A DNA stretch of 64,000 bases from an uncultured Collinsella sp. (lineage in GTDB: Bacteria > Actinomycetota > Coriobacteriia > Coriobacteriales > Coriobacteriaceae), in contig CABQQA010000001.1 of the NCBI GenBank assembly GCA_902466075.1, forward strand, positions 365,403 to 429,402, given 5' to 3'. Each line of letters opens with the position of its first letter. The stretch's first letter is position 1. Under the pieces are notes generated by a model. That model was not told the DNA's origin and made no database searches. It saw nothing but the letters and a program-made list of their open reading frames with translations. Below, in pieces: positions 5,713 through 54,711 of the stretch. Both the position numbers and the translations under genes were made by a program.

Positions 5713-5850
5713 CTCGCAAACCGCCACGAAGGGGACAGGCACCTTTGTGGTGGTTCTGGCGCCGTAGTCATTCTGGTAGCGGCGACTTATTTGTCCGCGC
5801 GGCGCGGTAGAGTGAAGGCGGTTGAAGTTTGCGTCCATCGAGGAGCTGCT

Positions 5851-7608
5851 ATGAACGAGATTAAGTGCCCGCATTGCGGCGAAGTTTTTAAGGTCGATGC
5901 GTCCGGCTATGCGGATATCGTCAAACAAGTGCGCAACGCCGAGTTTTCGCGCGATCTGGATGAGCGTGTGAGGGCAGTCCAGCGCGAGGGCGAGCAGGCG
6001 CTGGAGCTTGAGCGCTCGCGTTCGACGGCTGCCTTGCAAGAGGCAGAGTCTCAGCGCAACGCTCAGCTTGCCGAGCAGAAGAACACTGCGGAGCAGAAGC
6101 TGGCACAAGAGGTTGCCAAGCGCGACGCTGAGCTTGCCGAGCTGCGCGCCAAGCTCGAAGGCGCTGCCGCAGAGCGCGAGAGTGCAAGTCACCGCGCGGC
6201 GGTTGAGGCCCGCGCCGATGCTCAAAAGGAGAATGCCGAGCTTCAGCGCGAGATCGACAATTTGCGTGCGCAGCTGGAGCGCAAAGATGACGAAGCCAAG
6301 CTCGTCGAGTCGGCGACGCGCAATGCCGCTCAAAACGATTTAGCTGCACGTGATGCTCAGATTGCTGAGCTGCAGGCCAGACTTGCCGCGGCGGACAAGG
6401 CCCAGGAGATGGCGCTTGCCGCCGCTGCGGCCGAGTCGCAGCGTGAGCTCGATGCCGCTCGCAGCGAGGCCGAGCGCGCGCTTGCTGACTATCGCGTGAA
6501 GGTGCAAGAGAAGTTTTCTGCCGCAAAGGCACAGTCCGAGCAAGAGGCCGAGGGTCTGCGTGCCCAGTTGCGCGAGCAGGAACTGATGGCAAAAATGAAC
6601 CTGTCAGAGGCGGTCGCCGCGGCGGAGCGAGAGCGCGATGAGGCACGTGCCAAGCTGACGAGCGAGCTGGCGGTGCGCGATTCTCGCGAGGAGCAAGCCA
6701 AGGCGGCACACGAGCTCGAGCTTGCGCAGGCCAAGCGCGCGAGCGATGACCTGATTCGCTACAAGGATGAAGAGATTGAGCGCCTTAAGGACATGAAGGT
6801 CCGCCTGTCCACCAAGATGGTGGGCGAGTCGCTCGAGCAGCACTGCGAGACCGAGTTCAACCGTCTGCGCATGACGGCGTTTCCCAACGCGTACTTCGAG
6901 AAAGATAACGATGCGTCCGAGGGTACCAAGGGCGACTTTATCTTCCGCGAGTGCGACGCGAGCGGCAACGAGATCATTTCGATCATGTTCGAGATGAAAA
7001 ACGAGAACGACGAGACCGCGACCAAACACAAGAACGAGGATTTCTTTAAGAAACTCGATCACGATCGCCGCCAGAAAGGCTGCGAGTATGCGGTGCTCTG
7101 CACGTTGCTCGAGCCCGAGAGCGAGCTTTATAACGCAGGAATCGTGGACGTGAGCTATCGCTACGAGAAGATGTACGTGATCCGCCCACAGTTTTTCATT
7201 CCCATGATTACGCTGCTGCGCAACGCCGCCATGGGTTCGCTTCGCTATAAGCAGGAACTGGCGGAGTACAAACAGCAAAATATCGATGTCACGAACTTCG
7301 AAGCCAAGATGGAGAAGTTCAAGGATGGCTTCTCGCGCAACTACAACTTGGCGAGTAAGCAATTCGAGTCGGCAATCAAGGAGATCGATGCCGCCATTAA
7401 GCAGCTCGAGAAGACCAAGGACGACCTGCGCCGCAGCACCGAGAACCTGCGTCTTGCCCACAACAAGGCCGATGAGCTTACCATCCGCAAGCTCACATGG
7501 GGCAACAAGACCATGAAGGCAGCGTTTGACGAGGCGCATGAGGCTACACCAGAGACAAACGATGAGCCAGCCGAGGCAGATTCGTATGAGGTCGAGGATG
7601 CCGAGTAA
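5851..7608 (+). CDS. DUF2130-like protein: N-terminal CPHCG zinc-ribbon-like motif, a long Ala/Glu/Arg-rich coiled coil, and a conserved C-terminal domain
   Basis: The C-terminal region (KDMKVRLSTKMVGESLEQHCETEFN...FIFRECD...) matches my recollection of DUF2130. The start at MNEIKCPHCG follows a GGAGC RBS. The ORF opens earlier, at 5791. Confidence 0.55.
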   Translation: MNEIKCPHCGEVFKVDASGYADIVKQVRNAEFSRDLDERVRAVQREGEQALELERSRSTAALQEAESQRNAQLAEQKNTAEQKLAQEVAKRDAELAELRAKLEGAAAERESASHRAAVEARADAQKENAELQREIDNLRAQLERKDDEAKLVESATRNAAQNDLAARDAQIAELQARLAAADKAQEMALAAAAAESQRELDAARSEAERALADYRVKVQEKFSAAKAQSEQEAEGLRAQLREQELMAKMNLSEAVAAAERERDEARAKLTSELAVRDSREEQAKAAHELELAQAKRASDDLIRYKDEEIERLKDMKVRLSTKMVGESLEQHCETEFNRLRMTAFPNAYFEKDNDASEGTKGDFIFRECDASGNEIISIMFEMKNENDETATKHKNEDFFKKLDHDRRQKGCEYAVLCTLLEPESELYNAGIVDVSYRYEKMYVIRPQFFIPMITLLRNAAMGSLRYKQELAEYKQQNIDVTNFEAKMEKFKDGFSRNYNLASKQFESAIKEIDAAIKQLEKTKDDLRRSTENLRLAHNKADELTIRKLTWGNKTMKAAFDEAHEATPETNDEPAEADSYEVEDAE

Positions 7609-7628
7609 GGCATAGCGGATAGTGCAAG

Positions 7629-7664
7629 AGCGGGGCCGCTGGCGATGTTGCCAGCGGCCCCGCT
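7629..7664. terminator. bidirectional rho-independent terminator between convergent genes
   Basis: AGCGGGGCCGCTGGC-gatgtt-GCCAGCGGCCCCGCT perfect 15-bp stem followed by TCGTTTCGTT. Confidence 0.55.
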
Positions 7665-7686
7665 TCGTTTCGTTCCATTATGTTGG

Positions 7687-10371
7687 CTAGTCTTCGAGCA
7701 AGTCCTCGATAAAGCCGACGCGGTAGTTCTTGAAGATGACCTCGCCACCGTCTTGCGTGGCGTCCAGATCGACATCGCCCATGATGCCAAAGTCGTGGTC
7801 GCCGTCCTCGTCGGCAAAAATCTGGTGCACGTGCCACACGTGGAGCGCCTTCTCGTCGGACTCGTCGATCGAGAACATAGCAGAGGAGCGCGCGTCGCCG
7901 TCGGTGAGAATCTCCTCGTGCTGCTCGTGGTAAGCGTCGAGTGCTTTTTGCCAGCGGATCTCGCTCATGCCCCAGTCGTCGTCGAGTTCGCCCAGGTCGC
8001 GCACATGCTCGCGGGCGGCAAGAGTCACGCGGCGGAAGAGCGCGTTGCGCACCAACAGCGTGCAGCCGCGACGGTCCGCCACGACCTCGTCGATGCCCTG
8101 CGGCGGCGCGGCGTCGAGGGCTGCCGGGTTGCCAGCGTTTTCCCACTCGTCTACCAAGCTCGAGTCGACCGAGCGCACCACAAAGCCCAGCCACGAGATA
8201 ATGTCGCGCAGGCGCTCGTCGCGCTTCTCGATGGGTACGGTGCGGTCGAGCGAACGGTAAGCCTCTGCCAGGTAGCGCAGCAAAATGCCCTCGGAGCGGG
8301 CGATGCCGAGCTTTTGAATGTAGCCCTTAAAATCGCTCGCGCTTTCCAGCATATCGCGCAGGACGCTCTTGGGAGAGAGCTGGTAGTCGTTTGCCCAGGG
8401 TACTTCCTGGCAGTACTTGTCAAAAGCGGCGTCGAGCAAATCCTCGAGCGGCTTTTCGTACGTGACGTCTTGAATGCGCTCCAGACGCTCCTCATACTCG
8501 ATGCCGTCGGCCTTCATCTCGGCCATAGCTCGATCGCGTGCGGCACGCTCCTGCGCACGCAGCACTTGCTTGGGATCTTCGAGCGTCGCCTCGACCATTG
8601 AGATTAAATCCATGGTATAGGTCTCACTCTCGGGGTCGAGCAGCTCCAGCGCGGCAAGCAAAAACGGCGAGAGCGGCTGGTCGAGCGCAAAGTCCTCGGG
8701 CAGGTCGACCGTCAGCGCGTAGTCGATATCCGGCGCGGCGTCAGTCGGGGCGTCGGGTGCGGGCGGCACCTCGGTGCGCACGACGACGCCGGAATCGATG
8801 AGCGTGGCGAAGATTTCGTCGGCGCGAACCTCGAGCTTTTCCTTTTCCTCGGGCGTTTGCAGGCTTGTCTCGATGAGGTCGTGCACGCGGGCGCGAGCGT
8901 TGCCGCCCCGCTCGACCACGCTAATCACCATGGAGTGCGTGATGCGCAGGCGCGGCTTGAGCGTTTCGGGCTGCGTCTCGATCAGGCGCTCGAACGTCTG
9001 CTTGTTCCAGGTGACAAAGCCCTCGGGGGCCTTCTTCTTTTTAATCTTGCGGAGCTTTTTGGGGTCGTCGCCCGCCTTGGCCATAAGCTTGGCATTCTCG
9101 ATCTCGTGCTCGGGTGCCTCGGCGATGACCATGCCCTCGGTATCGAAGCCCGAGCGACCGGCGCGACCGGCAATCTGATGGAACTCACGGGCGCGCAGGC
9201 GACGCATCTTGTAGCCGTCGAATTTGGTGAGCGCGGTGAGCACCACGGTATGGATGGGCACGTTGATGCCGACGCCGAGCGTATCGGTGCCGCAGATGAC
9301 GGGCAACAGGCCCTGCTGCGCCAAGCGCTCGACCAGCAGGCGATAGCGCGGCAGCATACCGGCGTGGTGCACGCCGACGCCGCAGCCGAGCAAGCGCTTG
9401 AGGATCTTGCCAAAAGCCGTGGAGAAGCTCGTGCCTTTGGCGGCTTCCTTAATAGCCTTGCGCTGCTCCTTGCTGGCAATGCCAAAGTTGGCGAGGGATT
9501 GCGCCGTTGCAAGGGCGGCATCCTGGCTAAAGTGTACGATATAGAGCGGGGCCTCGCCGCGGCGCATGGCGAGCTCGACGGTGCCCTCGAGCGAGGTCGT
9601 CACATAGTCGTAGCTCAGCGGAACAGGACGCGGGGCATCGACGACCAAGTCGCAGGTAGCGCCGGTGTGTTCCTCGAGCGAAGCGGCGATCGCGGTGACA
9701 TCGCCGAGCGTGGCGCTCATGAGCATGAATTGCGTGTGAGGCAGGGTGAGCAGCGGCACCTGCCAGGCCCAACCGCGATCGGGGTCGGCAAAGTAGTGGA
9801 ACTCGTCCATGGCCACGCAGCCTACGTCGGCGCCCTCGCCCTCGCGGAGTGCATCGTTGGCAAGGATTTCGGCCGTGCAGCAGATGACGGGCGCCTTGGT
9901 GTTGATATGCGTGTCGCCGGTGATCATGCCGACGTTATCGCGGCCGAGCACCTGTACCAGATCGAAGAACTTCTCGCTGACCAGAGCCTTGATAGGAGCC
10001 GTGTAATAGCAACGTTTGCCCTGCGCCATGCCCATAAAGAGCATGCCCAGCGCGACAAGCGACTTGCCCGATCCGGTCGGTGTTCCCAAAATGACGTGAT
10101 CGCCGGCAGCCAGGTCCATGAGGGCCTCTTCTTGGTGGTCCCACAGCTCAATACCGCGATTGCTCGTCCATTCAAAGAATCGCTCGAAGGCCTGGTCGGG
10201 CGTGAGCCATGGCTCGGGCTCGCTGCCGTCTTCGGGTTCCCACCAGGTGGGGGAGAGCGCGCCGAGCGAACCGAACTCTGCCTCGGTTCCCGTGCCGCCC
10301 GAGAATGAACTGGCAGCGCCGGCGCCGGAAACGGTGTTGGCAGCGGTATCTGTCGTGGTCTGTACCATATG
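7687..10371 (-). CDS. Ski2-like DEAD/DEAH-box helicase (HelY-like, DUF3516-type C-terminal region)
   Basis: GTPTGSGKS Walker A, MDEFHY (DExH), SATLGD, and HHAGMLP...GTDTLGVGINVP motifs followed by a long C-terminal domain. The start is placed at the internal ATG (MVQTTT...) at 10371. The ORF runs on to 10539 through repeat copy B. Confidence 0.8.
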   Translation of the reverse strand, partial: HMVQTTTDTAANTVSGAGAASSFSGGTGTEAEFGSLGALSPTWWEPEDGSEPEPWLTPDQAFERFFEWTSNRGIELWDHQEEALMDLAAGDHVILGTPTGSGKSLVALGMLFMGMAQGKRCYYTAPIKALVSEKFFDLVQVLGRDNVGMITGDTHINTKAPVICCTAEILANDALREGEGADVGCVAMDEFHYFADPDRGWAWQVPLLTLPHTQFMLMSATLGDVTAIAASLEEHTGATCDLVVDAPRPVPLSYDYVTTSLEGTVELAMRRGEAPLYIVHFSQDAALATAQSLANFGIASKEQRKAIKEAAKGTSFSTAFGKILKRLLGCGVGVHHAGMLPRYRLLVERLAQQGLLPVICGTDTLGVGINVPIHTVVLTALTKFDGYKMRRLRAREFHQIAGRAGRSGFDTEGMVIAEAPEHEIENAKLMAKAGDDPKKLRKIKKKKAPEGFVTWNKQTFERLIETQPETLKPRLRITHSMVISVVERGGNARARVHDLIETSLQTPEEKEKLEVRADEIFATLIDSGVVVRTEVPPAPDAPTDAAPDIDYALTVDLPEDFALDQPLSPFLLAALELLDPESETYTMDLISMVEATLEDPKQVLRAQERAARDRAMAEMKADGIEYEERLERIQDVTYEKPLEDLLDAAFDKYCQEVPWANDYQLSPKSVLRDMLESASDFKGYIQKLGIARSEGILLRYLAEAYRSLDRTVPIEKRDERLRDIISWLGFVVRSVDSSLVDEWENAGNPAALDAAPPQGIDEVVADRRGCTLLVRNALFRRVTLAAREHVRDLGELDDDWGMSEIRWQKALDAYHEQHEEILTDGDARSSAMFSIDESDEKALHVWHVHQIFADEDGDHDFGIMGDVDLDATQDGGEVIFKNYRVGFIEDLLED

Positions 10372-10489
10372 GTTGCTTTCTCTCGCGATTGTCCGCCATC
10401 CATTATGGCGTAGCGTTGCATCGATGCGTTCGCAGGCAAGAAAATGCAGGAAATGGGCGTTCTGCCCGGCCGTTTGGTGCAGCTGCCAG

Positions 10490-10611
10490 CTAAGTGAGTA
10501 GACTTTTTGCAATATCGCGAGCACATGGCTTTTGCACAAGGGATCTACCTGCGGTTTTATTTTTGCTATGCGGATTGTGCTTGGCTATTGCAAAAAAGTC
10601 TACTCACTTAG
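10490..10611 (+). repeat. copy B of the ~122-bp terminal-inverted-repeat element
   Basis: CTAAGTGAGTAGACTTTTT ... GATCTACCTGCGGTTTTAT ... AAAAGTCTACTCACTTAG. Same orientation as copy A. Lies in the gap between the helicase start and the trmB stop. Confidence 0.7.
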
Positions 10612-17304: not shown

Positions 17305-19749
17305 TTAGGCGTGGTCGCGCCAGCTGAGAACGCGCTGCTTCATACCCTCGATGTCGAGCACGCCTTCGGCAAAGCCCTTGCGCACGAGCTCTTCGGGAAC
17401 GAACTCATCGTAACGATCAAAGAAAGGCACCTCGCCGGGATAGACGAGCTCGATGGGATCGAAGTCCTTCTCGGCTTCGGCGGCGAGCACCTCAAAGAAC
17501 ATCTCTTCGTCGGCCTTCATCTTAAATTGCATAAAGTACGGGCGTGACGGGTCGAGTCCGCGAAGGCCCAGCTCAGCGGCGCATTTGATTTTAAGCATGC
17601 GCTCGAGTGCTAGGAAGGCGTAGCTGCCCAACCAGGGGAAGAGCACCCAGGTGTCGCCACCCAGATTGATGAGCGGCTTAGTTCCCGCGCCCGAAATCTC
17701 GGCGGTATGACGAGCCTGCGCCAAGCGAGCCCGTGCGTTACCCATAAGGTACGGATATGCTGCGTGCTCAGTGAGCGCTTGGCGCATACGCTCGAGCACA
17801 TGCGTGTTAATGTCGCCGGGGCAGTCGCCAAAGTAGGCCGGCACCCGGCCCTTGACCTGCGTGGCAAAGACAGTGTGGCGCTTCCAGTCCACTTCCTCGA
17901 CAATCCAGCAGTGTCCGGCGATGGCGATGCGCTCACCGGGCGGGGGCGGATTAACGATCGTGCCCAGCTCGGCCGATTCGCTCCGGACGGTAAACTCCTC
18001 GTTTTCCTGGAACACGGCGTAGAACTTAAAGTTGTTGATGATGCGCTCGCCCGCGAGACCCACGATGAGCCCGCCACCTTCGGTGACCTGGATATGGTCG
18101 ATCTTAATGAGGTGACGTAGCAGCACACGGTAATCGTCTGCCGAGACACGGTGGAAATAGCTGAGCGTGAGCACGCGCTGGGCAAGTTCGGCCGGCGTGA
18201 GCTCGCCGGTGCTGGCGAGGGTCGACATAGTCTGGTGATAGAGCAGGCTGTAGGGGAGACGATCGAGCTCGGGTGGCTCGACCCACTTTTCCTCGCGATA
18301 GAGTTGTACGAGCGCGATACCCTGCAGGAGCTTCCAGGGAATGGTTTCGGGCATCATCGTGCGCGGCTCGGGCTCTTCCTCGCGCATGACAAACCACATC
18401 TCGGGCGGAAGATCGCGACGGCCTGTGCGCCCCATGCGTTGCAAAAAGGAGCTGACGGTAAACGGCGCGTCAATCTGGAAGGCGCGCTCCAGGCGGCCGA
18501 TATCGATACCGAGCTCCAGCGTAGAGGTGGTGACGGTCGTCTGTGCCTGTTCCTCGTCGCGCATGAGCTCTTCTGCCGTCTCGCGCAGCGATGCCGAAAG
18601 ATTGCCGTGGTGGATGAGAAAGCGGTCGGGCTCGTGCCGGCTCTCGCAGTAGCTACGCAGCATGGAGCATACGGCCTCTGCCTCCTCGCGCGAGTTGGCA
18701 AAGACCAGGCATTTGCGGCCGCGGGTGTGTTCGAAGATATAGCCCATGCCGGGGTCGGCGTTGTCGGGCGCCGTGTCGGTGGGGTTGAGAAGCGCCTGCT
18801 CGGTCGCTCGTGGGATGTCGACTTCGCCCTCGGGGGCCGAGGAAGTTTGGCGGTCCTTGGGAGCGGCCTTGCCCCGTGCCCGCTCACGACGTTGATGGCG
18901 CTCCTCTTGTGTGAGCTGTCCGCTGTGACGCATATCTTGGGCGCCGGCGGGCAGCGCCGCGGATACCGCTGCCTCGATGCGCTCGCACGCGAGTACTTCG
19001 GCCTCTTGAGGACCTGTGCCCATGAATCCCCGCTGCTGAGCCTGGGGGCCCGAGTTGTAGAAGTGCTCCATGGAGATGCGCCACACGCGGCGCGGTTCCT
19101 CAAAGCGGGGGATAACGCAGTCGCGCCCCGTTCCCTGCGAGAGAAAGGCGCCCGTGCGCTCGGGGTCGCCGATGGTGGCCGAAAGGCCAATGCGGCGGGG
19201 CTGCACGCCTGCCATGCGCGAGAGGCGCTCGATAAGACAGAGCGTCTGCCCGCCGCGGTCGCCGCGCATGAGCGAATGGACTTCGTCGATAACCACATAG
19301 CGCAGGTCGCAAAACATGCGCGGGATCGCCATGTGCTTATGGATCAGGAGTGCCTCGAGCGACTCGGGCGTAATCTGTAGGATGCCGCTCGGTTTTTTGA
19401 TGAGTTTGGCCTTGTGTGATTGCGAGACATCGCCATGCCAGTGCCAGACGGGGATATCGGCTTCTTCGCACAGGTCGTTGAGGCGGAAGAATTGGTCGTT
19501 GATGAGCGCCTTGAGGGGGCCAATGTAGAGGGCGCCCACGCTTGCGGGCGGGTTCTCCCAAAACTCGGTCAGGATGGGAAAGAAGGCTGCCTCGGTTTTG
19601 CCGGAAGCCGTGGATGCCGTCAGGAGCACATTGTCCTGTGTGTTGAAGATGGCATCTGCCGCCGCAACCTGGATAGAGCGCAAGCTCTCCCAATCGTGGG
19701 AGTAGATGAAGTCTTGGATAAACGGGGCGTAGCGGTCAAAGGCGTTCAC
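17305..19749 (-). CDS. Lhr-like SF2 DEAD/DEAH helicase (BrxHI-like)
   Basis: STASGKTEAAF (motif I), VVIDEVHSL (DEVH), SATIGDPE (III), and HHGNLSASLRE...TTSTLELGIDIG...QRMGRTGRR (IV-VI), which closely follow E. coli Lhr. The start is placed at GTG 19749, 5 nt after a perfect AAGGAGG. The ORF's Arg-rich N-terminal run up to 19998 is judged read-through. Confidence 0.75.
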   Translation of the reverse strand: MNAFDRYAPFIQDFIYSHDWESLRSIQVAAADAIFNTQDNVLLTASTASGKTEAAFFPILTEFWENPPASVGALYIGPLKALINDQFFRLNDLCEEADIPVWHWHGDVSQSHKAKLIKKPSGILQITPESLEALLIHKHMAIPRMFCDLRYVVIDEVHSLMRGDRGGQTLCLIERLSRMAGVQPRRIGLSATIGDPERTGAFLSQGTGRDCVIPRFEEPRRVWRISMEHFYNSGPQAQQRGFMGTGPQEAEVLACERIEAAVSAALPAGAQDMRHSGQLTQEERHQRRERARGKAAPKDRQTSSAPEGEVDIPRATEQALLNPTDTAPDNADPGMGYIFEHTRGRKCLVFANSREEAEAVCSMLRSYCESRHEPDRFLIHHGNLSASLRETAEELMRDEEQAQTTVTTSTLELGIDIGRLERAFQIDAPFTVSSFLQRMGRTGRRDLPPEMWFVMREEEPEPRTMMPETIPWKLLQGIALVQLYREEKWVEPPELDRLPYSLLYHQTMSTLASTGELTPAELAQRVLTLSYFHRVSADDYRVLLRHLIKIDHIQVTEGGGLIVGLAGERIINNFKFYAVFQENEEFTVRSESAELGTIVNPPPPGERIAIAGHCWIVEEVDWKRHTVFATQVKGRVPAYFGDCPGDINTHVLERMRQALTEHAAYPYLMGNARARLAQARHTAEISGAGTKPLINLGGDTWVLFPWLGSYAFLALERMLKIKCAAELGLRGLDPSRPYFMQFKMKADEEMFFEVLAAEAEKDFDPIELVYPGEVPFFDRYDEFVPEELVRKGFAEGVLDIEGMKQRVLSWRDHA

Positions 19750-19865
19750 GGGGCCTCCTTTCAACAACGAATCTCTCAACGCGGCTGGCAACGGCTTGCT
19801 GCATTGCTGCTTCAACGTTTGCCCAGATAAAACCTGCCAAAATAAACCTGTCCCTTTTTGGTGGG

Positions 19866-21170
19866 TTAGATGGTGAACTCGGCGAAGTTGCGGTCGCCGC
19901 CTGCGGTGCCGGTGTCGCCTGTTGCGGTTGCCGGCGCCAACGCGTCGCCGCCGACGCTTTGCAGCAGCTCGGCCACGTTGGCGTCGGGGTTTTGGCATAG
20001 GATGTCGAGCAGCTCGATAAAGTCACGAATGACTTCACGCGGCGTCAGATGCGTGTCGGCTCCCACGCGACCGAACTCGATCTTGAGGAAGTCCACCAAG
20101 TCGTTCTCGGTAAGCGTGGGCGTCCAGCCAAAGTAGCCGGCGTGAATTTGCATGAGTTTTTCGATCAGCACCAGCAGCTCCTCGTAGGTGAGTGGCTGCA
20201 GGCGGATGATGGGCGCGAGCATGTCCTTAAGGTCTTCGCGCGCAAAGCGGCCCTGAGCGAGTCGGCTGCGCAGGGCCTCGTAGGAGAACACGCCGCGGCG
20301 GCGGTCTTCGATGGAGGTTGGCGTGCCGCCCATGATCATGCCTAGGTACTGCGCCTTGCCCTGGAGCGTGTCGTTGTACATGGTCAGGATCTTCTCGTAG
20401 TTGTATTGGCGCGTGATGGCGTTGGGAATCTTATACAGATTCACGAGCTCGTCGATGAGCACCAGCATGCCCTTGTAGCCACTGCAGACCAAAAAACGCG
20501 CGATGAGTTTGACGTAGTCGTACCAGTCGTCATCGCTGATGATGGTTGAGGAGCCCAGCTCGGCGCGTGCCTCGCTCTTGGTGCGGTATTCGCCGCGAAT
20601 CCATTTGGTCACGCGGCTCATGGTCTCTTCGTCGCCCCCGGATGCGGCCATGCGATAGCGGCGGAGCATGCGGGTGAAGTCGAAGCCGTGGACCATCTCC
20701 TCGAGCGGGGCCAGTTGGGCATTGACGACCGACTCGTCGACGTCGGCACACGAGGCGACCCAGCGATCCAGAATAAGGTTGAGCGCACCGCCCTCGGGGC
20801 GCGTCTTGGTCGATATATTGCGGATGAGCTCGCGGTAGGTGGCAAGGCCCTGTCCCTGACCGCCTTGCAGGCGGCGCTCGGGCGACAGGTCGGCATCAGC
20901 GACGACGAATCCCTCGCCCATGGCGTGCGTGCGGATAGTCTGGAGCAAAAAGCTCTTGCCGGCGCCGTAACGACCGACCAGAAAGCGGAAGCTCGCGCCA
21001 CCGTCGGCGATGAGACTCAGATCGGTGAGCAGGGCGCGGATCTCGACCTCGCGCCCTACGGTGATGTAAGGAAGGCCGATGCGCGGGACCACGCCGCCCT
21101 TGAGCGAGTTGAGAATGACGGCAGCGACGCGCTTGGGCACGCGAGGTGCTGCGGATGCGGTATCACTCAT
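19866..21170 (-). CDS. DUF2791-family P-loop ATPase (BrxD-like)
   Basis: GRYGAGKS Walker A, MLVLIDEL Walker B, about 430 aa. Length and motif layout match my recollection of BREX BrxD (PF10923). Overlaps the upstream gene by 8 nt. Confidence 0.65.
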   Translation of the reverse strand: MSDTASAAPRVPKRVAAVILNSLKGGVVPRIGLPYITVGREVEIRALLTDLSLIADGGASFRFLVGRYGAGKSFLLQTIRTHAMGEGFVVADADLSPERRLQGGQGQGLATYRELIRNISTKTRPEGGALNLILDRWVASCADVDESVVNAQLAPLEEMVHGFDFTRMLRRYRMAASGGDEETMSRVTKWIRGEYRTKSEARAELGSSTIISDDDWYDYVKLIARFLVCSGYKGMLVLIDELVNLYKIPNAITRQYNYEKILTMYNDTLQGKAQYLGMIMGGTPTSIEDRRRGVFSYEALRSRLAQGRFAREDLKDMLAPIIRLQPLTYEELLVLIEKLMQIHAGYFGWTPTLTENDLVDFLKIEFGRVGADTHLTPREVIRDFIELLDILCQNPDANVAELLQSVGGDALAPATATGDTGTAGGDRNFAEFTI

Positions 21171-22917
21171 GGTCTAGGTATCCTCTCACGTCTGCTTCGT
21201 AGTCCTCGATAATCTGCGGCCCTGCTGCGTTAAATTCAATTACGGTGTCGCCCACCAGGTCAAAGAGCGCCTCGTTGATGGTATCGACGAGCATGTCCTC
21301 GCTCTGCTCCGATTGCACTACCGCCGATTCCGCCTGTACTGCGTTGTGCTCGAGCAGCGCGCGGAGATAGGCGTCTGCGGCGGGCGCGAGTTCGTTTGTG
21401 GCGTCAGCGGGCGTAGCAGCTGCGAACGCGGGCGTCGGCGCGAGAAGCGGTGCCACGACACCAAACTGTTCGGTGGATATGGTCGGCTCGTCGGACTCGT
21501 CCTGCCCTGCAGCCGCCGCGACCGCCTCGACCATCGCGTCGGCTACGGGCTCGGCTTCCGGTTGCCCTGAGTCCGCTGCCTCGGCTTCTGCGGACGCGCC
21601 GTCCTCGCGTTCCTCGTCAATCAAAAGCGCCTCGCGCGTTTGTGCGGCGGCGCTCCGAATATGCCCCAGCTGACTCAGATCGATATCGATCTTGACGGGC
21701 TGGTGCGCGGCGTCCCACGAAAGCCATGCCACAATCTCGTCATCGATAATCTTGGCCAGATATTTGGGGACCTTTTCTTCCTTAAGGGGATGGGCAGGGT
21801 CCAGCGCCAGGCGCAGGCGTTGGTCGCAGGCGCGCATCATTTCACCGAGCTTGCTGCTCTTTTGCCTACTACCGTGGATACGCATGCATTCCCAAAAGCC
21901 GTTTTGGCAACGGTAGATATGGATGGGGTCCAGACGGTATTCGCAGTCCTCGTGGCGCTCGGGCGCAAAGAATACGGCCGAGGCAAACATGGTGTAGGGC
22001 ATGGCCGTCTCCTCCCCAAATAAACTTGCCACGATGCCGGTCTTTCGGTGCGTGTCATAGTAGCGCACCATGCGGACATACACGGCGCACGCCACGTGGC
22101 GCAGATCACGGTGGTGGCTGCGGTCGAGCCGCGAGCTACTTAGGTTGTACGTGGAGAGGGCGTTGATGGCGGCCATGAGTCGCTCCTCGCGCACCTCATC
22201 GGGCGGAAGGGGGAGCGTGGGCTCGGAGGTTTTGCGACGCTTAGGGGTCTGGCCGGACGGTGCCGGTACAAGGTCTCGTGCCGCGCGCCGCAGTTCGATA
22301 AGGGCGTTATCGAACATGACGGTTTTAGAGTCGCGAAGCAGCTTGGGGTCGAGCCCGTGGAACACGGCGTAATCTTGCAGCCACACGCGCGCAAACCGGT
22401 CGATGCCGGGCTCGAAGGCGCGATAGACATCCCAAAAAGCCTTGATCTTGTTAAAACCATCGAGTGGATTATCTACGCCAATGCCGCAGATCAGCTCATA
22501 GAGATACAGAAAGGCAAAGGACGTAGACGTTTCCTCGACGGTTCCGCGGCGCACTTGGGCACGCCAGGTAAAGTAGCCGCGCAGTTGCCGGTCGCTCATG
22601 GCGTTGTAGGTGGGAAAGTACGACTTAAAGGTGCCGTTGTAGGGACAGTCGTCCTCAAAGTCGGCCATCAGCAGGCCCTGGCGGTAAAAAAGCTCGGCTT
22701 CCGAAAGCCAGCGGCCTGCACCGCCCTTGGGGTCATCCTGCCAGCGCGATATCTCGCGCATTTTACGGTACTGGTCGGGGAGGAAATTCTGCATCTGTCG
22801 GCCGGTTTTGAGAATCGGCTCGTCTGCGTAGGTTTCGTTTGAGAAGCGGGCGGACTGATGGGTCCGGGCCTCGGCCATAATGCGCTCGATGAGCATCTTG
22901 ATGTCCTGGTCGGCCAC
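21163..22917 (-). CDS. TerB-N/TerB-C-like protein (uncharacterised; N-terminal Y..M...QLRGYFTWR motif)
   Basis: 584 aa. The N-terminal region has the Y-x-x-M-x-x-x-QLR-x-YF-x-WR signature I associate with the TerB-N domain. Has an acidic, Ala-rich C-terminal half. Co-oriented and overlapping with the DUF2791 gene. Confidence 0.45.
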   Translation of the reverse strand: MADQDIKMLIERIMAEARTHQSARFSNETYADEPILKTGRQMQNFLPDQYRKMREISRWQDDPKGGAGRWLSEAELFYRQGLLMADFEDDCPYNGTFKSYFPTYNAMSDRQLRGYFTWRAQVRRGTVEETSTSFAFLYLYELICGIGVDNPLDGFNKIKAFWDVYRAFEPGIDRFARVWLQDYAVFHGLDPKLLRDSKTVMFDNALIELRRAARDLVPAPSGQTPKRRKTSEPTLPLPPDEVREERLMAAINALSTYNLSSSRLDRSHHRDLRHVACAVYVRMVRYYDTHRKTGIVASLFGEETAMPYTMFASAVFFAPERHEDCEYRLDPIHIYRCQNGFWECMRIHGSRQKSSKLGEMMRACDQRLRLALDPAHPLKEEKVPKYLAKIIDDEIVAWLSWDAAHQPVKIDIDLSQLGHIRSAAAQTREALLIDEEREDGASAEAEAADSGQPEAEPVADAMVEAVAAAAGQDESDEPTISTEQFGVVAPLLAPTPAFAAATPADATNELAPAADAYLRALLEHNAVQAESAVVQSEQSEDMLVDTINEALFDLVGDTVIEFNAAGPQIIEDYEADVRGYLDHE

Positions 22918-23004
22918 CGCTCCTCCTCTCGAACGCAGCTACGGTGACCTCATATCATAGCACAGCATCAAACAGATGTTCGAGATACCGCTGCGTTGAT
23001 AGAT

Positions 23005-23839: not shown

Positions 23840-25270
23840 TCAGGTGGTTGTCGGGACATAGGGATAGTAGTCAAAGCGCAGTGTCATAAGCCGCTGTGGG
23901 GATTCAATAGCCGCGGCGATGATATTGGCATCGCGGGCACGATCAAACCCTTCGAGTTCGATCTGATACGAGACGTCTTGCATAATGTCCAGACGTCGCC
24001 AGGCTAGAAGTGTGTCGCCATCGAATTCCAAGGTCTTGCCTCCGTCTGGGGCAACGGCGTATAGACGCAGTTTAGCGGTGGTTGCAGGGTCGACAACCGT
24101 GACCTTTTTAATTTCGTTTCGAGTATTCTTGGCGCCCAACAAGGTGAGCAGTGTTGGGGCCACGACCTCGCCTGATGGCAAAAAGACGACTTCGATGGAT
24201 TCGGGAAATGCGATGATGGCCGACTTGCGGACGGGCTGATTGGCGGCGGCAACTTCGATGTTTGCAGCATCGATGACCTCTGTGTGGTCGAGGGCGGCAA
24301 GCACGCAGCAGTTACCTTCATCGATCTCCTGAGGATCAGCAAGCCCCAGACTGTCCGCGAGCTCGGGATCGTTTGGACCGGTAGCGGGCTCATTCGGTGC
24401 TTCGAAAGAAGCTGGGACGCTGTTTGTCGGCGACAGCGTGTCGCCCGCACCTGCTTCTTTGTCCGTGCTCTCTTCTTGTATGGTTGCGTTGATGGGTTCG
24501 TCGTTTGAGGGGAGCGTCTTGGCGTCAAGCGCGGAGGGGAGAATTCTGATGGCTCCGGATCCGTTCCACTCCATTTCGAGAAGCGCCGGGTCGGCAAGAA
24601 TGCGTTGCCTGCTTTGCGCGTGGGCATCGATTTCAATAGGGCCTGCCTCTGTCCCTCGTGTAAGGCTGAGTGATCCGGCTGACTTCTCGAAATGAGCGTC
24701 TGTGTCTTTGGTGCTGACGGCGTAGAACAGCAGGGATGCTTCTCCCGCCGCGATGGCATCGGTGTCGGCTTTGGTCAGCCGCAACGATGCTGTGAATGAG
24801 AGGGTGGGCTGCACATCGTCTGCATTCGCGGCGGCGCAGCCCAGACATATACCGCCTCCTTTCTCGAAAAACGCACCGTCGAAGGCGACCTTCGCTCCGT
24901 TCGCCGAGTCATCGACCGAAGCGATGTCGATGCGCAGCTCTAAATTGCATGGATCGCCATCTGCATCGAGCACAACCGAGCGCCATGTGCAGACGGCGCA
25001 CCCCGCCTGGGAGCCGTTTGCCTTGTTCGAACGATTGATATCCACGACTATCGAGCCGTCCGTATTACGACGAAGGCATCCCGAGGTTGAGATTGCGGCC
25101 TGTGCGATCGAAAAACGCTTGCACGCAATGGCGCTCGACGGATTTGGTGCAGAGCTTAGGGCTGCTGGTAAGGAGTCCGCCATGACGGGAGTCGCCCAAG
25201 CGGCGACAGGCGTTCCGGTTGCGAGCGCGCCGCAGAGTGCGACGACGGGCAAAAGGTTCTTCGATGCCAT
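23840..25270 (-). CDS. secreted protein of unknown function (signal peptide)
   Basis: N-terminal MASKNLLPVVALCGALATGTPVAAWA signal-like segment. Ser/Ala/Asp-rich, no recognised domain. Confidence 0.45.
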   Translation of the reverse strand: MASKNLLPVVALCGALATGTPVAAWATPVMADSLPAALSSAPNPSSAIACKRFSIAQAAISTSGCLRRNTDGSIVVDINRSNKANGSQAGCAVCTWRSVVLDADGDPCNLELRIDIASVDDSANGAKVAFDGAFFEKGGGICLGCAAANADDVQPTLSFTASLRLTKADTDAIAAGEASLLFYAVSTKDTDAHFEKSAGSLSLTRGTEAGPIEIDAHAQSRQRILADPALLEMEWNGSGAIRILPSALDAKTLPSNDEPINATIQEESTDKEAGAGDTLSPTNSVPASFEAPNEPATGPNDPELADSLGLADPQEIDEGNCCVLAALDHTEVIDAANIEVAAANQPVRKSAIIAFPESIEVVFLPSGEVVAPTLLTLLGAKNTRNEIKKVTVVDPATTAKLRLYAVAPDGGKTLEFDGDTLLAWRRLDIMQDVSYQIELEGFDRARDANIIAAAIESPQRLMTLRFDYYPYVPTTT

Positions 25271-25288: not shown

Positions 25289-25600
25289 TTAGTGCGGCCT
25301 GTCCGTGTTTCGTTTCTGGCTGCGTTTGATGTGCAGACCGAGGCCGGCGGTTCCCGCACCTGCTGCCGTGGCGCCTGCTGCCAAGAGCCATCGTCTGTCG
25401 TCTGTCTGTGCCAACGGTTCCTTGCAGTTGCCGCGGTCGAGCTCCGAGAGGTCGACCGTCACTTGCGTGGCGGCCTGCGCCTGTTCTTGCTGGGCAAAGG
25501 CCATGGCTGGCCCAAACGCTAGGATACTGACGGCGGCGGCCAGGGCGACGGCCTTATGCCGTGTGCGCACCGGGCTCGACCGTCCAGGTGATCGTTGCAA
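25289..25600 (-). CDS. small secreted protein with a sortase-signal-like C-terminus (LAQTD, then a hydrophobic stretch, then KRSQKRN)
   Basis: Signal peptide ...AFGPAMAFA-QQ. The C-terminus LAQTDDRRWLLAAGATAAGAGTAGLGLHIKRSQKRNTDRPH has the tripartite motif / hydrophobic / basic layout. Confidence 0.4.
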   Translation of the reverse strand: MQRSPGRSSPVRTRHKAVALAAAVSILAFGPAMAFAQQEQAQAATQVTVDLSELDRGNCKEPLAQTDDRRWLLAAGATAAGAGTAGLGLHIKRSQKRNTDRPH

Positions 25601-26153
25601 CCTGATCGCCTTCGCCGGTTACGCGGAAGATGTCGCGCGTGACGCGGGCGACGTTTCCGCTTGTCTTGAGCTTAATTTTGTCCGTGCCGCCGGCAATGCC
25701 CTGGTAGCCCATGTCGAAGGCTGCATTCTTGGAAAGATCGAGGCCCGTCTCCTGCATTGCGGCGCTGGCGTTTTGGAGTGCGCCGTCGGGGCCGACCTTA
25801 AAGTCGATGGAATTCTGCGCGGTTCCGGCCTTGGCGTCGGCGGCAATGGTCCAGGTGTTCATGGCGTCGATCTTCATGTTGGTGACATGGATGCCGTAGG
25901 CCGAATGATTGTCGATGGTGGTCGCGTCTTCTGAGGGGCCCTGAAGCGTGCCGTCGGCCTTGGCGACGAAGGGAATAACCGTCGGAACTTTGAACTCTAC
26001 GTTGTCGATCTCGGTCCTGACCATTACTTTCGTGGTTCCAACGCGCCCGGCTGCCAGAGCTGGCGTCGGGGCGGCGCCCATTGCGAGCGCGAGCGCGAGC
26101 CCTGCGCCCACGACGAGCGCTCTGGCTCCGTTCATGTTCCTGGTGATGTCCAT
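25554..26153 (-). CDS. secreted beta-rich protein of unknown function
   Basis: MNGARALVVGAGLALALAMGAAPTPALA signal peptide. Its 3' end overlaps the next gene by 47 nt in a different frame. Confidence 0.45.
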   Translation of the reverse strand: MDITRNMNGARALVVGAGLALALAMGAAPTPALAAGRVGTTKVMVRTEIDNVEFKVPTVIPFVAKADGTLQGPSEDATTIDNHSAYGIHVTNMKIDAMNTWTIAADAKAGTAQNSIDFKVGPDGALQNASAAMQETGLDLSKNAAFDMGYQGIAGGTDKIKLKTSGNVARVTRDIFRVTGEGDQVATITWTVEPGAHTA

Positions 26154-26243
26154 GGTCGTTCCTTTCTATTCGCCGCGGGCCGTCCCCGCGATGATTGGAC
26201 GAATGCTGGTGAATTGCGTGCGGTGCCGCGTCGGCCGAAAAAG

Positions 26244-26753
26244 CTAGTTCTCGGCTTGCTCAACCCGTACCTTGACACGTGTCGGATTGCCGTGGCTGTC
26301 GAGGGTCTTGGCATCGAGTGCCTGGATCTCGATGTATGCCTCGCCTTCTTTGATGTCGCCGGCGGGGCACGTCTCGATTGTCTTGCCGGTCTCGACCACA
26401 CCGGATTCGTACATGGTCTCGTCGTTTTGGATGACGCGGAATCGCTGGGGAAATTTATTGTCTTGGACGTTTTGCACGTTGACGCGCAGCTTGCCGTCCT
26501 CCTGTAGCTGAGCGACCGGCGCGACCGAAATCGTCATCATGTTGTCGCGGACGATGGCATCGAGCTCATCTTGGATTTCTTGTCGCGATTTACCCTCTGC
26601 CGTCGTGACTGAGGCGCCCGCTTCGGGCACGGGCTGCGACTGCCAGGCGTATAGCCCTACGGCGATGAGGGCGCAGACGATAGCCAGACAGACAACGACG
26701 AGTTTCTTGCGATGCCCCAGTCCTGCGAGGCGGGGCGGCTTCTTTGCACTCAT
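26244..26753 (-). CDS. membrane-anchored (N-terminal signal-anchor) protein of unknown function
   Basis: KKPPRLAGLGHRKKLVVVCLAIVCALIAVGLYAW then a soluble domain. 4-nt overlap with the upstream gene. Confidence 0.45.
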   Translation of the reverse strand: MSAKKPPRLAGLGHRKKLVVVCLAIVCALIAVGLYAWQSQPVPEAGASVTTAEGKSRQEIQDELDAIVRDNMMTISVAPVAQLQEDGKLRVNVQNVQDNKFPQRFRVIQNDETMYESGVVETGKTIETCPAGDIKEGEAYIEIQALDAKTLDSHGNPTRVKVRVEQAEN

Positions 26754-27046
26754 GCGGCGTCCTTGGTGGTGTAGACACGTGCGAACGTGGACGGGTCCGC
26801 TCCAAAGAGCATGTGAAGCATCAGGCGGCGCGAGTAGATGAGCTCGTCAAAGTCGTGAGGGAGCTCGATGTCGTGGATACGCGCGATGTGGTGGGCGAGC
26901 GCCGAGAACGACTCGGGGTCGCAGATAACATCGGTGGTGACGTGGTAGACCGCCGTATCGGGGAACGCCTCTTCGTCGAAAGGCAGGAGATAGGGATCGT
27001 CGTCGACCTCGATGGCGACGCCGTACTGGGGCCAGTAATATGCCAT
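26750..27046 (-). CDS. small acidic cytoplasmic protein (first gene of the secreted-protein operon)
   Basis: 98 codons. The VAIEVDDD segment is reminiscent of DUF559-like proteins. Weak call. Confidence 0.35.
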   Translation of the reverse strand: MAYYWPQYGVAIEVDDDPYLLPFDEEAFPDTAVYHVTTDVICDPESFSALAHHIARIHDIELPHDFDELIYSRRLMLHMLFGADPSTFARVYTTKDAA

Positions 27047-54435: not shown

Positions 54436-54711
54436 ATGCGCTTGTGACTCCCTTTGCCCGTGAACCCGTTTTGAATGGATATGCTAGACGCTCGCATGCG
54501 TCCGTGCGTCAGAAACGCTCGAATATTTCGAGGCTATTACCGGCATCGTTTACCGAAACCGCGGCGTGCTGCGGCGATTTGCGTCTGCTCTGCACGGTAT
54601 AATAAATCCGTTCAACAGATCTGCCTGCCGAAGCGGGCATACACAGAGGACTCATCGCTATGAACCGTGAGAGGTATCGCGGCGACCTGCCCCTATCGGG
54701 GGTGGGCGCCT

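What the first reader, a model, noticed from the sequence alone, without database searches (positions are those of the whole stretch)
17305..22917. Candidate DNA-processing/defence-type cluster: TerB-N/C-like protein + DUF2791 (BrxD-like) ATPase + Lhr-like (BrxHI-like) helicase, with no BREX core
Three co-oriented minus-strand genes overlap or nearly abut one another. Gene 1 (584 aa) has an N-terminal Y..M...QLRGYFTWR signature that I associate with the TerB-N domain, and an acidic C-terminal half. Gene 2 (434 aa) is a P-loop ATPase (GRYGAGKS / LVLIDEL) whose size and layout match DUF2791/BrxD. Gene 3 (814 aa) is an unmistakable Lhr-type SF2 helicase; motifs I-VI track E. coli Lhr. In type 2 BREX (Pgl), brxD and the Lhr-like brxHI are accessory neighbours. 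Here there is no PglX methyltransferase, PglZ phosphatase, PglW or PglY anywhere in the 64 kb. Comparative-genomics work on Ter-associated domains predicted, but did not test, a TerB-N/TerB-C + AAA-type ATPase + helicase DNA-processing system. This locus fits that description and would be an experimentally uncharacterised system. It is wedged tightly between housekeeping-type operons: a 26-nt gap to the convergent spermidine-synthase-like gene and an 87-nt gap to the DUF554 gene.
Basis: partly seen in the sequence, partly recalled or inferred. Interest (0 to 1): 0.85.

Follow-up and report, generated by a model that had tools for sequence, protein, structure and literature searches.

The report
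Core-genome Shango defence operon in Collinsella
The three genes are real, but they are the already described and phage-tested Shango defence system (SngA, SngB, SngC); here it is a conserved chromosomal operon of gut Collinsella with what looks like a DNA-damage (LexA/SOS) control site in its promoter.

Summary
Three co-oriented minus-strand genes encode a TerB_N+TerB_C protein (584 aa), a BrxC/BrxD-family P-loop ATPase (434 aa) and an Lhr/BrxHI-like SF2 helicase (814 aa). There is no BREX core in the 64 kb.

The claim that the system is uncharacterised is wrong. PADLOC models identify SngA, SngB and SngC (E 3e-75, 1e-168, 5e-275). This is Shango, shown to be anti-phage in E. coli (Millman 2022) and P. 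aeruginosa (Johnson 2023). Its mechanism is still unknown.

The locus is not an island. No empty site was found in 80 Collinsella species representatives. The trio also sits at the same site in contigs whose flanking proteins are only 52-80% identical. dS matches the flanks. Omega is 0.04 (SngB, SngC) and 0.12 (SngA). The HRGM2 preprint already noted Shango in Actinobacteriota core genomes.

Possibly new points:
- This SngA lacks the TerB core domain.
- A GAAC-N4-GTTY palindrome (the LexA box type of Actinobacteria and Firmicutes) next to an extended -10 is conserved in all eight lineages examined.
- Two lineages apparently lost sngAB but kept an intact sngC with the box.

Verdict: a member of a known kind, with a testable SOS-regulation lead.

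The parts
21163..22917 (-). sngA: 584-aa TerB_N + central alpha/beta domain + acidic disordered linker + TerB_C (C-terminal winged-helix-like end). It has no TerB core domain and no predicted TM helix.
19866..21170 (-). sngB: 434-aa P-loop ATPase of the BrxC/BrxD family. Walker A is GRYGAGKS (aa 66-73) and Walker B is LVLIDE (aa 236-241). It overlaps sngA by 8 nt.
   Evidence: Pfam PF10923 6e-149. PADLOC SngB 1.1e-168 against BrxD 1.2e-38. NCBIfam BrxD equivalog scores 132 bits, below the cut-off of 350. Motifs.
17305..19749 (-). sngC: 814-aa SF2 helicase of the SngC/BrxHI/Lhr-like clade, with a GTG start. It carries a lineage-variable insertion of about 90 aa between the two RecA lobes (about aa 225-325, window about 18777-19077).
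   Evidence: Start codon and RBS. PADLOC SngC 5.1e-275 and BrxHI 6e-123. Nearest solved relatives are Lhr core 5v9x/7lhl and MrfA 6znp. Motifs. The variable segment lies at aa 241-330.
22968..22983 (-). Putative LexA (SOS) operator TCGAACATCTGTTTGA, 50 nt upstream of the sngA start codon.
   Evidence: It is the only match with <=1 mismatch to TCGAAC-N4-GTTCGA in 64 kb (expected 0.22). The GAAC-N4-GTTY core is invariant in 8 diverged lineages. The consensus comes from the literature. Binding by LexA is inferred, not shown.
22954..22962 (-). Extended -10 promoter element TGcTATGAT, 5 nt downstream of the operator.
   Evidence: Read from the sequence. The T, G and first T of the TGnT start are invariant in alignment A5. 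The generic sigma-70 scan did not list it because there is no -35 hexamer.
22920..22930 (-). Ribosome-binding site GAGAGGAGGAG ahead of the sngA GTG.
   Evidence: Sequence.

Best explanation
The locus is a complete, intact Shango system (sngA-sngB-sngC), a known three-gene anti-phage system. It lies in the chromosome of a Collinsella (C. aerofaciens group) gut bacterium.

Shown here:
- All three proteins match the Shango models over nearly their full length.
- Gene order and overlaps match plasmid-borne Shango.
- The ATPase and helicase catalytic motifs are intact.
- The operon is vertically inherited at one chromosomal site under strong purifying selection.
- None of the three proteins has a recognisable nuclease domain or membrane segment.

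Inferred mechanism (about 40% confidence as a whole):
- SngA is a cytoplasmic sensor or adaptor that binds nucleic acid or a partner through its winged-helix-like TerB_C end. Its acidic disordered linker may act in autoinhibition.
- SngB is a BrxD-like ATP-driven switch or loader.
- SngC is the effector, an Lhr-like 3'-5' translocase that acts on phage replication or recombination intermediates rather than cutting DNA itself.

Inferred regulation (about 55-60%): the operon is transcribed from an extended -10 promoter whose -35 region is occupied by a GAAC-N4-GTTY LexA-type operator. It would then be repressed in undamaged cells and induced by the SOS response, for example on phage attack, prophage induction or DNA damage.
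For: Identity:
- PADLOC gives SngA 3.3e-75, SngB 1.1e-168 and SngC 5.1e-275, each far better than the BrxD or BrxHI models.
- These scores are comparable with a Klebsiella plasmid Shango (SngA 1e-104, SngC 5e-282).
- The same A-B-C order is found on K. pneumoniae, C. estertheticum and Phaeobacter plasmids.
- Shango is experimentally anti-phage.

Functionality:
- Motifs are intact.
- All non-truncated copies in about 90 loci are intact, apart from one stop codon and one frameshift.
- Omega is 0.039 (SngC), 0.043 (SngB) and 0.12 (SngA), against 0.06-0.10 for the flanking genes.

Vertical inheritance:
- 77 of 80 species representatives carry at least part of sngC next to the flank gene. The other three contigs end within about 400 nt of it.
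- The same site is used in contigs whose flank protein is 80, 73, 63, 56 and 52% identical.
- dS is similar to that of the flanks.
- There is no tRNA, flanking repeat or neighbouring defence gene.
- HRGM2 reports Shango in Actinobacteriota core genomes.

Regulation:
- The operator is unique in the window and conserved across 8 lineages, while its flanks have diverged.
- It matches the GAAC-N4-GTTC LexA motif of Actinobacteria and Firmicutes and the validated Streptomyces boxes.

SngA:
- The AF2 model is confident.
- The only structural similarity is to winged-helix DNA-binding domains.
- No TM helices are predicted.
Against: - Anti-phage activity has not been tested for any Collinsella or Gram-positive Shango.
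- This SngA lacks the TerB core domain found in the proteobacterial SngA proteins examined. Its pairwise similarity to Klebsiella SngA is barely detectable.
- Core-gene behaviour and stronger conservation than the housekeeping neighbours are unusual for a defence system.
- Two lineages keep sngC without sngAB, so the helicase has a selectable role on its own.
- LexA binding is unproven. I could not inspect Collinsella lexA or recA promoters.
- The SngB model failed (pLDDT 49).
Confidence: 0.8

Rival explanations
1. In Collinsella the trio is primarily a housekeeping, SOS-induced DNA-damage-response module and not an immune system. It would be a domesticated Shango. SngC would work like Lhr or MrfA on damaged or stalled DNA, and SngA/SngB would be dispensable regulators.
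For: - The locus shows core-genome behaviour and is more conserved than its neighbours.
- The promoter carries a LexA-type box that is retained even in front of lone sngC.
- There appear to be two independent losses of sngAB with intact sngC under purifying selection.
- The nearest solved relatives, Lhr and MrfA, are described as DNA-repair helicases (for the matches; their function is from my own knowledge).
- No nuclease effector is present.
Against: - The family is experimentally anti-phage and is mobile on hundreds of plasmids.
- SOS control is also compatible with defence.
- One related lineage lacks all three genes at the site, so the trio is not essential.
- SngA and SngB are themselves strongly conserved where present.
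Confidence: 0.25
2. The conserved palindrome is not a LexA site. It would be the operator of another dimeric regulator, or simply part of the promoter.
For: No Collinsella SOS gene promoter could be examined. The left half-site overlaps the position where a -35 element would lie. The motif was recognised post hoc.
Against: Both half-sites are conserved symmetrically. Three lineages carry perfect GAAC-N4-GTTC palindromes with different spacers. The site matches the consensus validated in Actinobacteria to within 1 of 12 positions. Only 7 other such sites occur in 231 kb.
Confidence: 0.35
3. The genes are a remnant or accessory pair of a type 2 BREX (Pgl) system (BrxD + BrxHI) that lost its core.
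For: SngB and SngC are homologous to BrxD and BrxHI. The ATPase-then-helicase order is the same as in a Streptomyces BREX-2 locus.
Against: - The Sng models score far higher than the Brx models.
- The NCBIfam BrxD equivalog scores 132 bits against a cut-off of 350.
- Identity to true BrxD is only 25% and to the BREX helicase 30%.
- No PglX or PglZ occurs in 64 kb or in any of the related 20-kb loci with listed gene calls.
- A TerB_N/TerB_C gene is translationally coupled to sngB.
Confidence: 0.02
4. It is a Ter-type (tellurite or membrane stress) or 'membrane surveillance' system, as has been proposed for TerB-containing defence proteins.
For: The TerB_N and TerB_C domains belong to the Ter-associated domain set. 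Reviews propose membrane surveillance for Shango.
Against: There is no TerB core domain, no TM or strongly hydrophobic segment in any of the three proteins, and no terC/terD/terZ neighbours. The partners are nucleic-acid enzymes.
Confidence: 0.03

Closest known systems
Shango (SngA/SngB/SngC) of E. coli and P. aeruginosa PA14 (Millman et al. 2022; Johnson et al. 2023)
   Same: Three genes in the order TerB_N/TerB_C protein, DUF2791-type ATPase, SF2 helicase. All three PADLOC models match at nearly full length. The genes are translationally coupled, as on plasmids.
   Different: - The validated systems sit in mobile defence hotspots or islands. This one is a fixed, vertically inherited chromosomal operon.
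- SngA here lacks the TerB core domain that the Klebsiella and Phaeobacter plasmid SngA proteins carry.
- SngC has an extra insertion of about 90 aa.
- A LexA-type box sits in the promoter and is absent from the plasmid versions examined.
BrxD + BrxHI of type 2 BREX (Pgl)
   Same: Homologous ATPase and helicase, adjacent and in the same order.
   Different: Identity is 25-30%. The hit is below the BrxD equivalog cut-off. There is no methyltransferase, PglZ, PglW or PglY. The partner is a TerB_N/TerB_C protein instead.
Lhr-core and MrfA (YprA) DNA-repair helicases (PDB 5v9x, 7lhl, 6znp)
   Same: These are the closest solved relatives of SngC. They share the SF2 DExH motifs and a similar overall length to Lhr-core.
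   Different: Only the first RecA lobe aligns significantly by sequence. DEAD_assoc is not detected. NCBIfam Lhr-type models score far below their cut-offs. SngC is operonic with SngA/SngB.
TerB-N/TerB-C + AAA-type ATPase + helicase 'DNA-processing' system predicted by Anantharaman, Iyer & Aravind 2012
   Same: The same domain triad. This prediction is the in-silico forerunner of Shango. It is cited as such; the paper itself could not be retrieved.
   Different: None in architecture. The prediction has since been tested as Shango.

Membership tests
Shango | SngA-family protein (TerB_N ... TerB_C) | tested here: met
   PADLOC PDLC03958 3.3e-75, aa 30-579 against profile positions 54-525 of 528. 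Pfam TerB_N 2.4e-32 and TerB_C 2.8e-15.
Shango | SngB-family P-loop ATPase (PF10923/DUF2791) with intact Walker A and B | tested here: met
   PADLOC PDLC03959 1.1e-168. Pfam 6e-149. GRYGAGKS and LVLIDE present.
Shango | SngC-family SF2 helicase with intact motifs I, II, III and VI | tested here: met
   PADLOC PDLC03960 5.1e-275. SGKT, DEVH, SAT and QRMGRTGR present.
Shango | Three genes contiguous, co-oriented, in the order A-B-C | tested here: met
   8-nt overlap between A and B, 116-nt gap between B and C. The same order is found on three plasmids.
Shango | TerB core domain (PF05099) in SngA, as the literature describes ('TerB domain') | tested here: not met
   No PF05099 hit at E<=0.01. Klebsiella and Phaeobacter SngA have it (2e-07, 1.8e-08). 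C. estertheticum SngA and a distant Collinsella-like SngA do not. The feature therefore varies within the family as PADLOC defines it.
Shango | Protects against phage when expressed | not testable with these tools
   Shown only for the E. coli and P. aeruginosa systems.
BREX type 2 (Pgl) | PglX methyltransferase and PglZ phosphatase (plus PglW and PglY) in the locus | tested here: not met
   The ten largest other proteins of the window are housekeeping. The neighbours have no specific defence hits. No such domains appear in the gene lists of related loci.
BREX type 2 (Pgl) | BrxD equivalog | tested here: not met
   NCBIfam NF033438 scores 132 bits against a cut-off of 350. Identity to an annotated BrxD is 25%.
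Lhr helicase | Lhr-type C-terminal module (DEAD_assoc, PF08494) and an equivalog-level match | tested here: not met
   No PF08494 hit. TIGR04121 scores 193 against 850 and PRK09751 scores 83.5 against 1496. Only RecA lobe 1 aligns to 5v9x.
LexA (SOS) regulon | GAAC-N4-GTTC-type operator overlapping the promoter | tested here: met
   TCGAACATCTGTTTGA at 22968-22983, the only such site in 64 kb. The core is invariant in 8 lineages. Consensus from the literature.
LexA (SOS) regulon | Same motif upstream of lexA and recA of the same organism; LexA binding; induction by DNA damage | not tested
Binding and induction need experiments.
Ter (tellurite resistance) cluster | TerB core domain with terC/terD/terZ-type neighbours | tested here: not met
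   No PF05099 hit. Neighbours are DUF554, a radical-SAM/GNAT protein, a spermidine-synthase-like protein and helicases.

The most novel reading that the evidence does not exclude
In Collinsella and its relatives, Shango has become a LexA-controlled, vertically inherited part of the DNA-damage response. SngC would be an Lhr/MrfA-like helicase that is useful on its own, and SngA/SngB would be add-on sensors. If so, the natural trigger of Shango in general would be damaged or aberrant DNA, such as phage replication intermediates, and not a membrane signal. The boundary between 'defence system' and 'repair system' would be crossed within one gene family.
Probability: 0.25. Interest if true: 0.65.

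Novelty: new member of a known kind. Interest (0 to 1): 0.38.

Why it matters
As a discovery of a new system it does not matter, because Shango is known and standard defence-finder models detect this locus.

It matters modestly for two reasons.

1. Shango's mechanism is still unknown. No solved structure of SngA or SngB exists, and reviews only speculate about membrane surveillance. A TerB-core-less, soluble SngA, an apparent SOS operator and lineages that keep only the helicase all point towards DNA-damage or DNA-structure sensing. They give direct experiments.

2. It is a clear, quantified example of a defence system behaving as a core gene, more conserved than its housekeeping neighbours, in a very abundant human gut genus.

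Tried and rejected
- BREX-2 remnant: rejected.
- Mobile island: rejected for this clade. No empty site was found in 80 species. There is no tRNA and there are no flanking repeats. No relatives occur in viral contigs and no neighbouring defence genes were found.
- Pseudogene or decay: rejected.
The shallow alignment gave pLDDT 49, which is unusable.
- Homologue searches: both remaining homologous-protein searches returned almost only sequences 97-100% identical, so they gave no diversity.
- PDB: sequence and profile searches for SngA and SngB found nothing meaningful. Foldseek of the SngA model found nothing with E<0.1.
- Promoter scan: the generic scan found nothing at sngA. The promoter was read by eye and by conservation.
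- Taxon names: these could be obtained for only one distant lineage (Collinsella sp.). The others are unnamed metagenome contigs.
- Literature: Anantharaman et al. 2012 could not be retrieved. Searches found no mechanistic Shango paper and no Shango-LexA link.

Full report
**1. Observation**

- The three minus-strand ORFs exist where stated.
- sngA-like gene 1 is 21163-22917 (584 aa, GTG start, RBS GAGGAGGAG).
- Gene 2 is 19866-21170 (434 aa) and overlaps gene 1 by 8 nt.
- Gene 3 ends at 17305. It starts at the GTG at 19749, 5 nt downstream of AAAGGAGG, which gives 814 aa. Public gene calls on identical contigs agree.
- Gaps of 26 nt (to the convergent 292-aa gene) and 87 nt (to DUF554) are correct.
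- Pfam confirms TerB_N plus TerB_C, BrxC_BrxD (PF10923, formerly DUF2791), and DEAD plus Helicase_C. DEAD_assoc is not detected.

**2. Identity**

- PADLOC models give SngA 3.3e-75, SngB 1.1e-168 and SngC 5.1e-275. Each match is nearly full length and far better than BrxD (1e-38) or BrxHI (6e-123).
- This is the Shango system. Millman et al. named it and reported anti-phage activity in E. coli. Johnson et al. found it independently in the P. aeruginosa PA14 cDHS1 hotspot and showed a 10-100-fold EOP reduction plus protection in liquid culture.
The 'uncharacterised' claim therefore fails.
- NCBIfam's BrxD equivalog is missed (132 bits against a cut-off of 350). All Lhr-type equivalogs are far below their cut-offs.
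- The ten largest other proteins of the window are housekeeping: PurL, a RecJ-helicase fusion, RelA/SpoT, homoserine dehydrogenase, dehydrogenases and an antiporter.
- The ten neighbours of the trio have no specific defence hits. There is neither a BREX core nor a defence island.

**3. Organism and population behaviour**

- The identical SngB occurs in 405 blocks of the collection, mostly human-gut metagenomes. NCBI names it 'ATP-binding protein [Collinsella aerofaciens]'.
- I scanned one genome per GTDB species with the flanking 292-aa gene. This found 536 relatives. The best 80 are all Collinsella-type species representatives with 92-98% identity.
- tblastn shows the trio at the same place in every locus with enough DNA. 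77 of 80 loci have at least part of sngC. The other three contigs end within about 400 nt of the flank gene.
- All non-truncated copies are intact apart from one stop codon (L070 sngA) and one frameshift (L082 sngC).
- Nei-Gojobori estimates against 58-79 species give omega 0.039 (sngC), 0.043 (sngB) and 0.12 (sngA). The flanks give 0.063, 0.10 and 0.079. dS is similar: 0.19-0.31 against 0.15-0.33.
- Variation is confined to the acidic linker of SngA and to an insertion in SngC.

**4. Deeper relatives**

- I looked at contigs whose flank protein is 80, 73, 63, 56 and 52% identical. All carry the trio beside the radical-SAM/GNAT plus 292-aa pair, although the far flank differs. One of these lineages is named Collinsella sp..
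- SngC (75-89% identity) and SngB (74-90%) are more conserved than the radical-SAM protein (64-86%) and the 292-aa protein (52-80%). SngA evolves fast (51-67%).
- One lineage (L099) lacks all three genes. It has RyR-, FHA- and TIR/beta-propeller-domain genes at the site.
- Two lineages (L100, L102) have only sngC. These are bona fide SngC (1e-272 and 6e-274) with intact motifs and omega of about 0.10-0.15.
- L100 is closest to the trio-bearing L101. L102 is closest to the trio-bearing L097 and shares its PGA_cap insertion. Two independent losses of sngAB are therefore the parsimonious reading.
- Elsewhere the system is mobile. SngB homologues of about 42% identity sit on 449 Klebsiella and 144 Salmonella plasmids, most of them conjugative, next to IS elements or relaxases.
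- The HRGM2 preprint already states that Shango in Actinobacteriota is an exception among defence systems because it lies in core genomes.

**5. Anatomy**

- The SngA family is large: 2479 clusters at 50% identity with E<=1e-3.
- An alignment of 64 homologues has 15 invariant residues. They lie in the TerB_N motif (Y104, Y115, R119, R123), the central domain (W342) and TerB_C (I420, R421, D557, Y573).
- AlphaFold2 gives a confident SngA model (pLDDT 85.9). It has an all-alpha TerB_N region, a central alpha/beta domain, a disordered acidic linker (447-506; residues 431-510 hold 19 D/E and 1 K/R) and a C-terminal three-helix, beta-hairpin, helix unit.
- I infer, but could not verify, that the C-terminal unit is the matched part.
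- This SngA lacks the TerB core domain that the Klebsiella and Phaeobacter SngA proteins carry. The C. estertheticum SngA also lacks it.
- None of the three proteins has a hydrophobic segment.
- No solved structure is related to SngA or SngB.
- The nearest solved relatives of SngC are Lhr-core and MrfA. A published phylogeny places SngC with BrxHI, DruE and DpdJ.
- No nuclease domain was found in any of the three proteins.

**6. Regulation (found in passing)**

- Fifty nt upstream of sngA lies TCGAACATCTGTTTGA (22968-22983). It is followed by an extended -10 element, TGcTATGAT.
- It is the only match with <=1 mismatch to TCGAAC-N4-GTTCGA in the window. The number expected by chance is 0.22.
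- The GAAC-N4-GTTY core and the -10 element are invariant across eight diverged lineages, while the surrounding sequence is not.
- This includes the promoters left in front of lone sngC in L100 and L102.
- Only 7 other such sites occur in 231 kb. None lies upstream of the plasmid Shango operons examined.
- GAAC-N4-GTTC is the LexA motif of Actinobacteria and Firmicutes. Validated Streptomyces boxes include TCGAACATCCATTC (recA) and TCGAACGTGTGTTT (lexA).
- No paper in the library links Shango with LexA.
- LexA binding here is an inference. I could not examine Collinsella SOS gene promoters.

**7. Interpretation**

- Best supported: an intact, selected Shango operon fixed in the Collinsella chromosome and probably under SOS control.
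- The mechanism of Shango is not known. I propose that SngA is a soluble nucleic-acid or partner-binding sensor, SngB is a BrxD-like ATP switch or loader, and SngC is an Lhr-like translocase acting as a non-nucleolytic effector.
- The main rival (25%) is that this lineage uses the module mainly for DNA-damage processing.
- The BREX-remnant, Ter/membrane and decay readings are rejected.

**8. Verdict**

- The finding is real but it belongs to a known kind.
- Residual interest lies in three points: the apparent SOS operator, the TerB-core-less SngA, and the sngC-only lineages. All three are leads to Shango's mechanism.

Noticed in passing
window 22954-22983 (and L091, L093, L095, L097, L100, L101, L102 promoters): A conserved GAAC-N4-GTTY palindrome (LexA/SOS-box type) lies next to an extended -10 element upstream of sngA. 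It is retained in front of lone sngC in two lineages and is absent from the plasmid Shango operons examined.
   Followed up: partly
L100:12301-14646 and L102:12143-14593: Two related lineages carry an intact sngC orthologue (77-78% identical, PADLOC 1e-272) without sngA or sngB. Each is closest to a lineage with the full trio, which implies independent sngAB losses.
   Followed up: partly
L099:10888-18711: In one related lineage the Shango site is occupied by genes with RyR, FHA and TIR_2/beta-propeller domains. There is a weak PADLOC SAVED_TIR hit (1.6e-07). This may be a different defence cassette at the same site.
   Followed up: partly
window 23840-25270 (-): A 476-aa protein with a signal-peptide-like N-terminus is hypervariable. 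Some species carry alleles only 57-60% identical even though their flanking genes are about 95% identical. Omega is 0.26, the highest in the neighbourhood. It is followed by small co-oriented genes (25289-27046) with no Pfam hits.
   Followed up: partly
window 54667-57999 (+): A 1110-aa fusion of a RecJ-type exonuclease (DHH, DHHA1, RecJ_OB) with an SF2 helicase (DEAD, Helicase_C).
   Followed up: no
window 5791-10539: A DUF2130 protein with a long N-terminal extension (605 aa) and a 950-aa DUF3516/Suv3-like helicase are syntenic with the Shango neighbourhood across all related lineages examined.
   Followed up: no
L045:11034-12233 and L089 (same position): A 399-aa multi-pass membrane protein gene is inserted between the 292-aa flank gene and sngC in two species. 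Other species have an extra stretch of about 150 nt there, so the gap is 185 nt instead of 26 nt.
   Followed up: partly
window ~18777-19077 (SngC aa ~225-325): A low-complexity insertion of about 90 aa lies between the two RecA lobes of SngC. It is absent from the PADLOC profile and from Klebsiella SngC. It is shorter in some relatives (780-aa proteins) and is the only variable part of the protein.
   Followed up: partly
L105:9461-13176: On a Phaeobacter plasmid the Shango operon is followed directly by a PD-(D/E)XK nuclease and a UvrD-type helicase gene, and it lies near an AbiEi antitoxin gene.
   Followed up: no
L100, between the remnant promoter (~15001) and sngC (14646): A 27-codon hydrophobic ORF (MRALALVLQALAIVMALAITLIVLLTF) and a GC-rich hairpin lie where sngA and sngB would be.
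   Followed up: no
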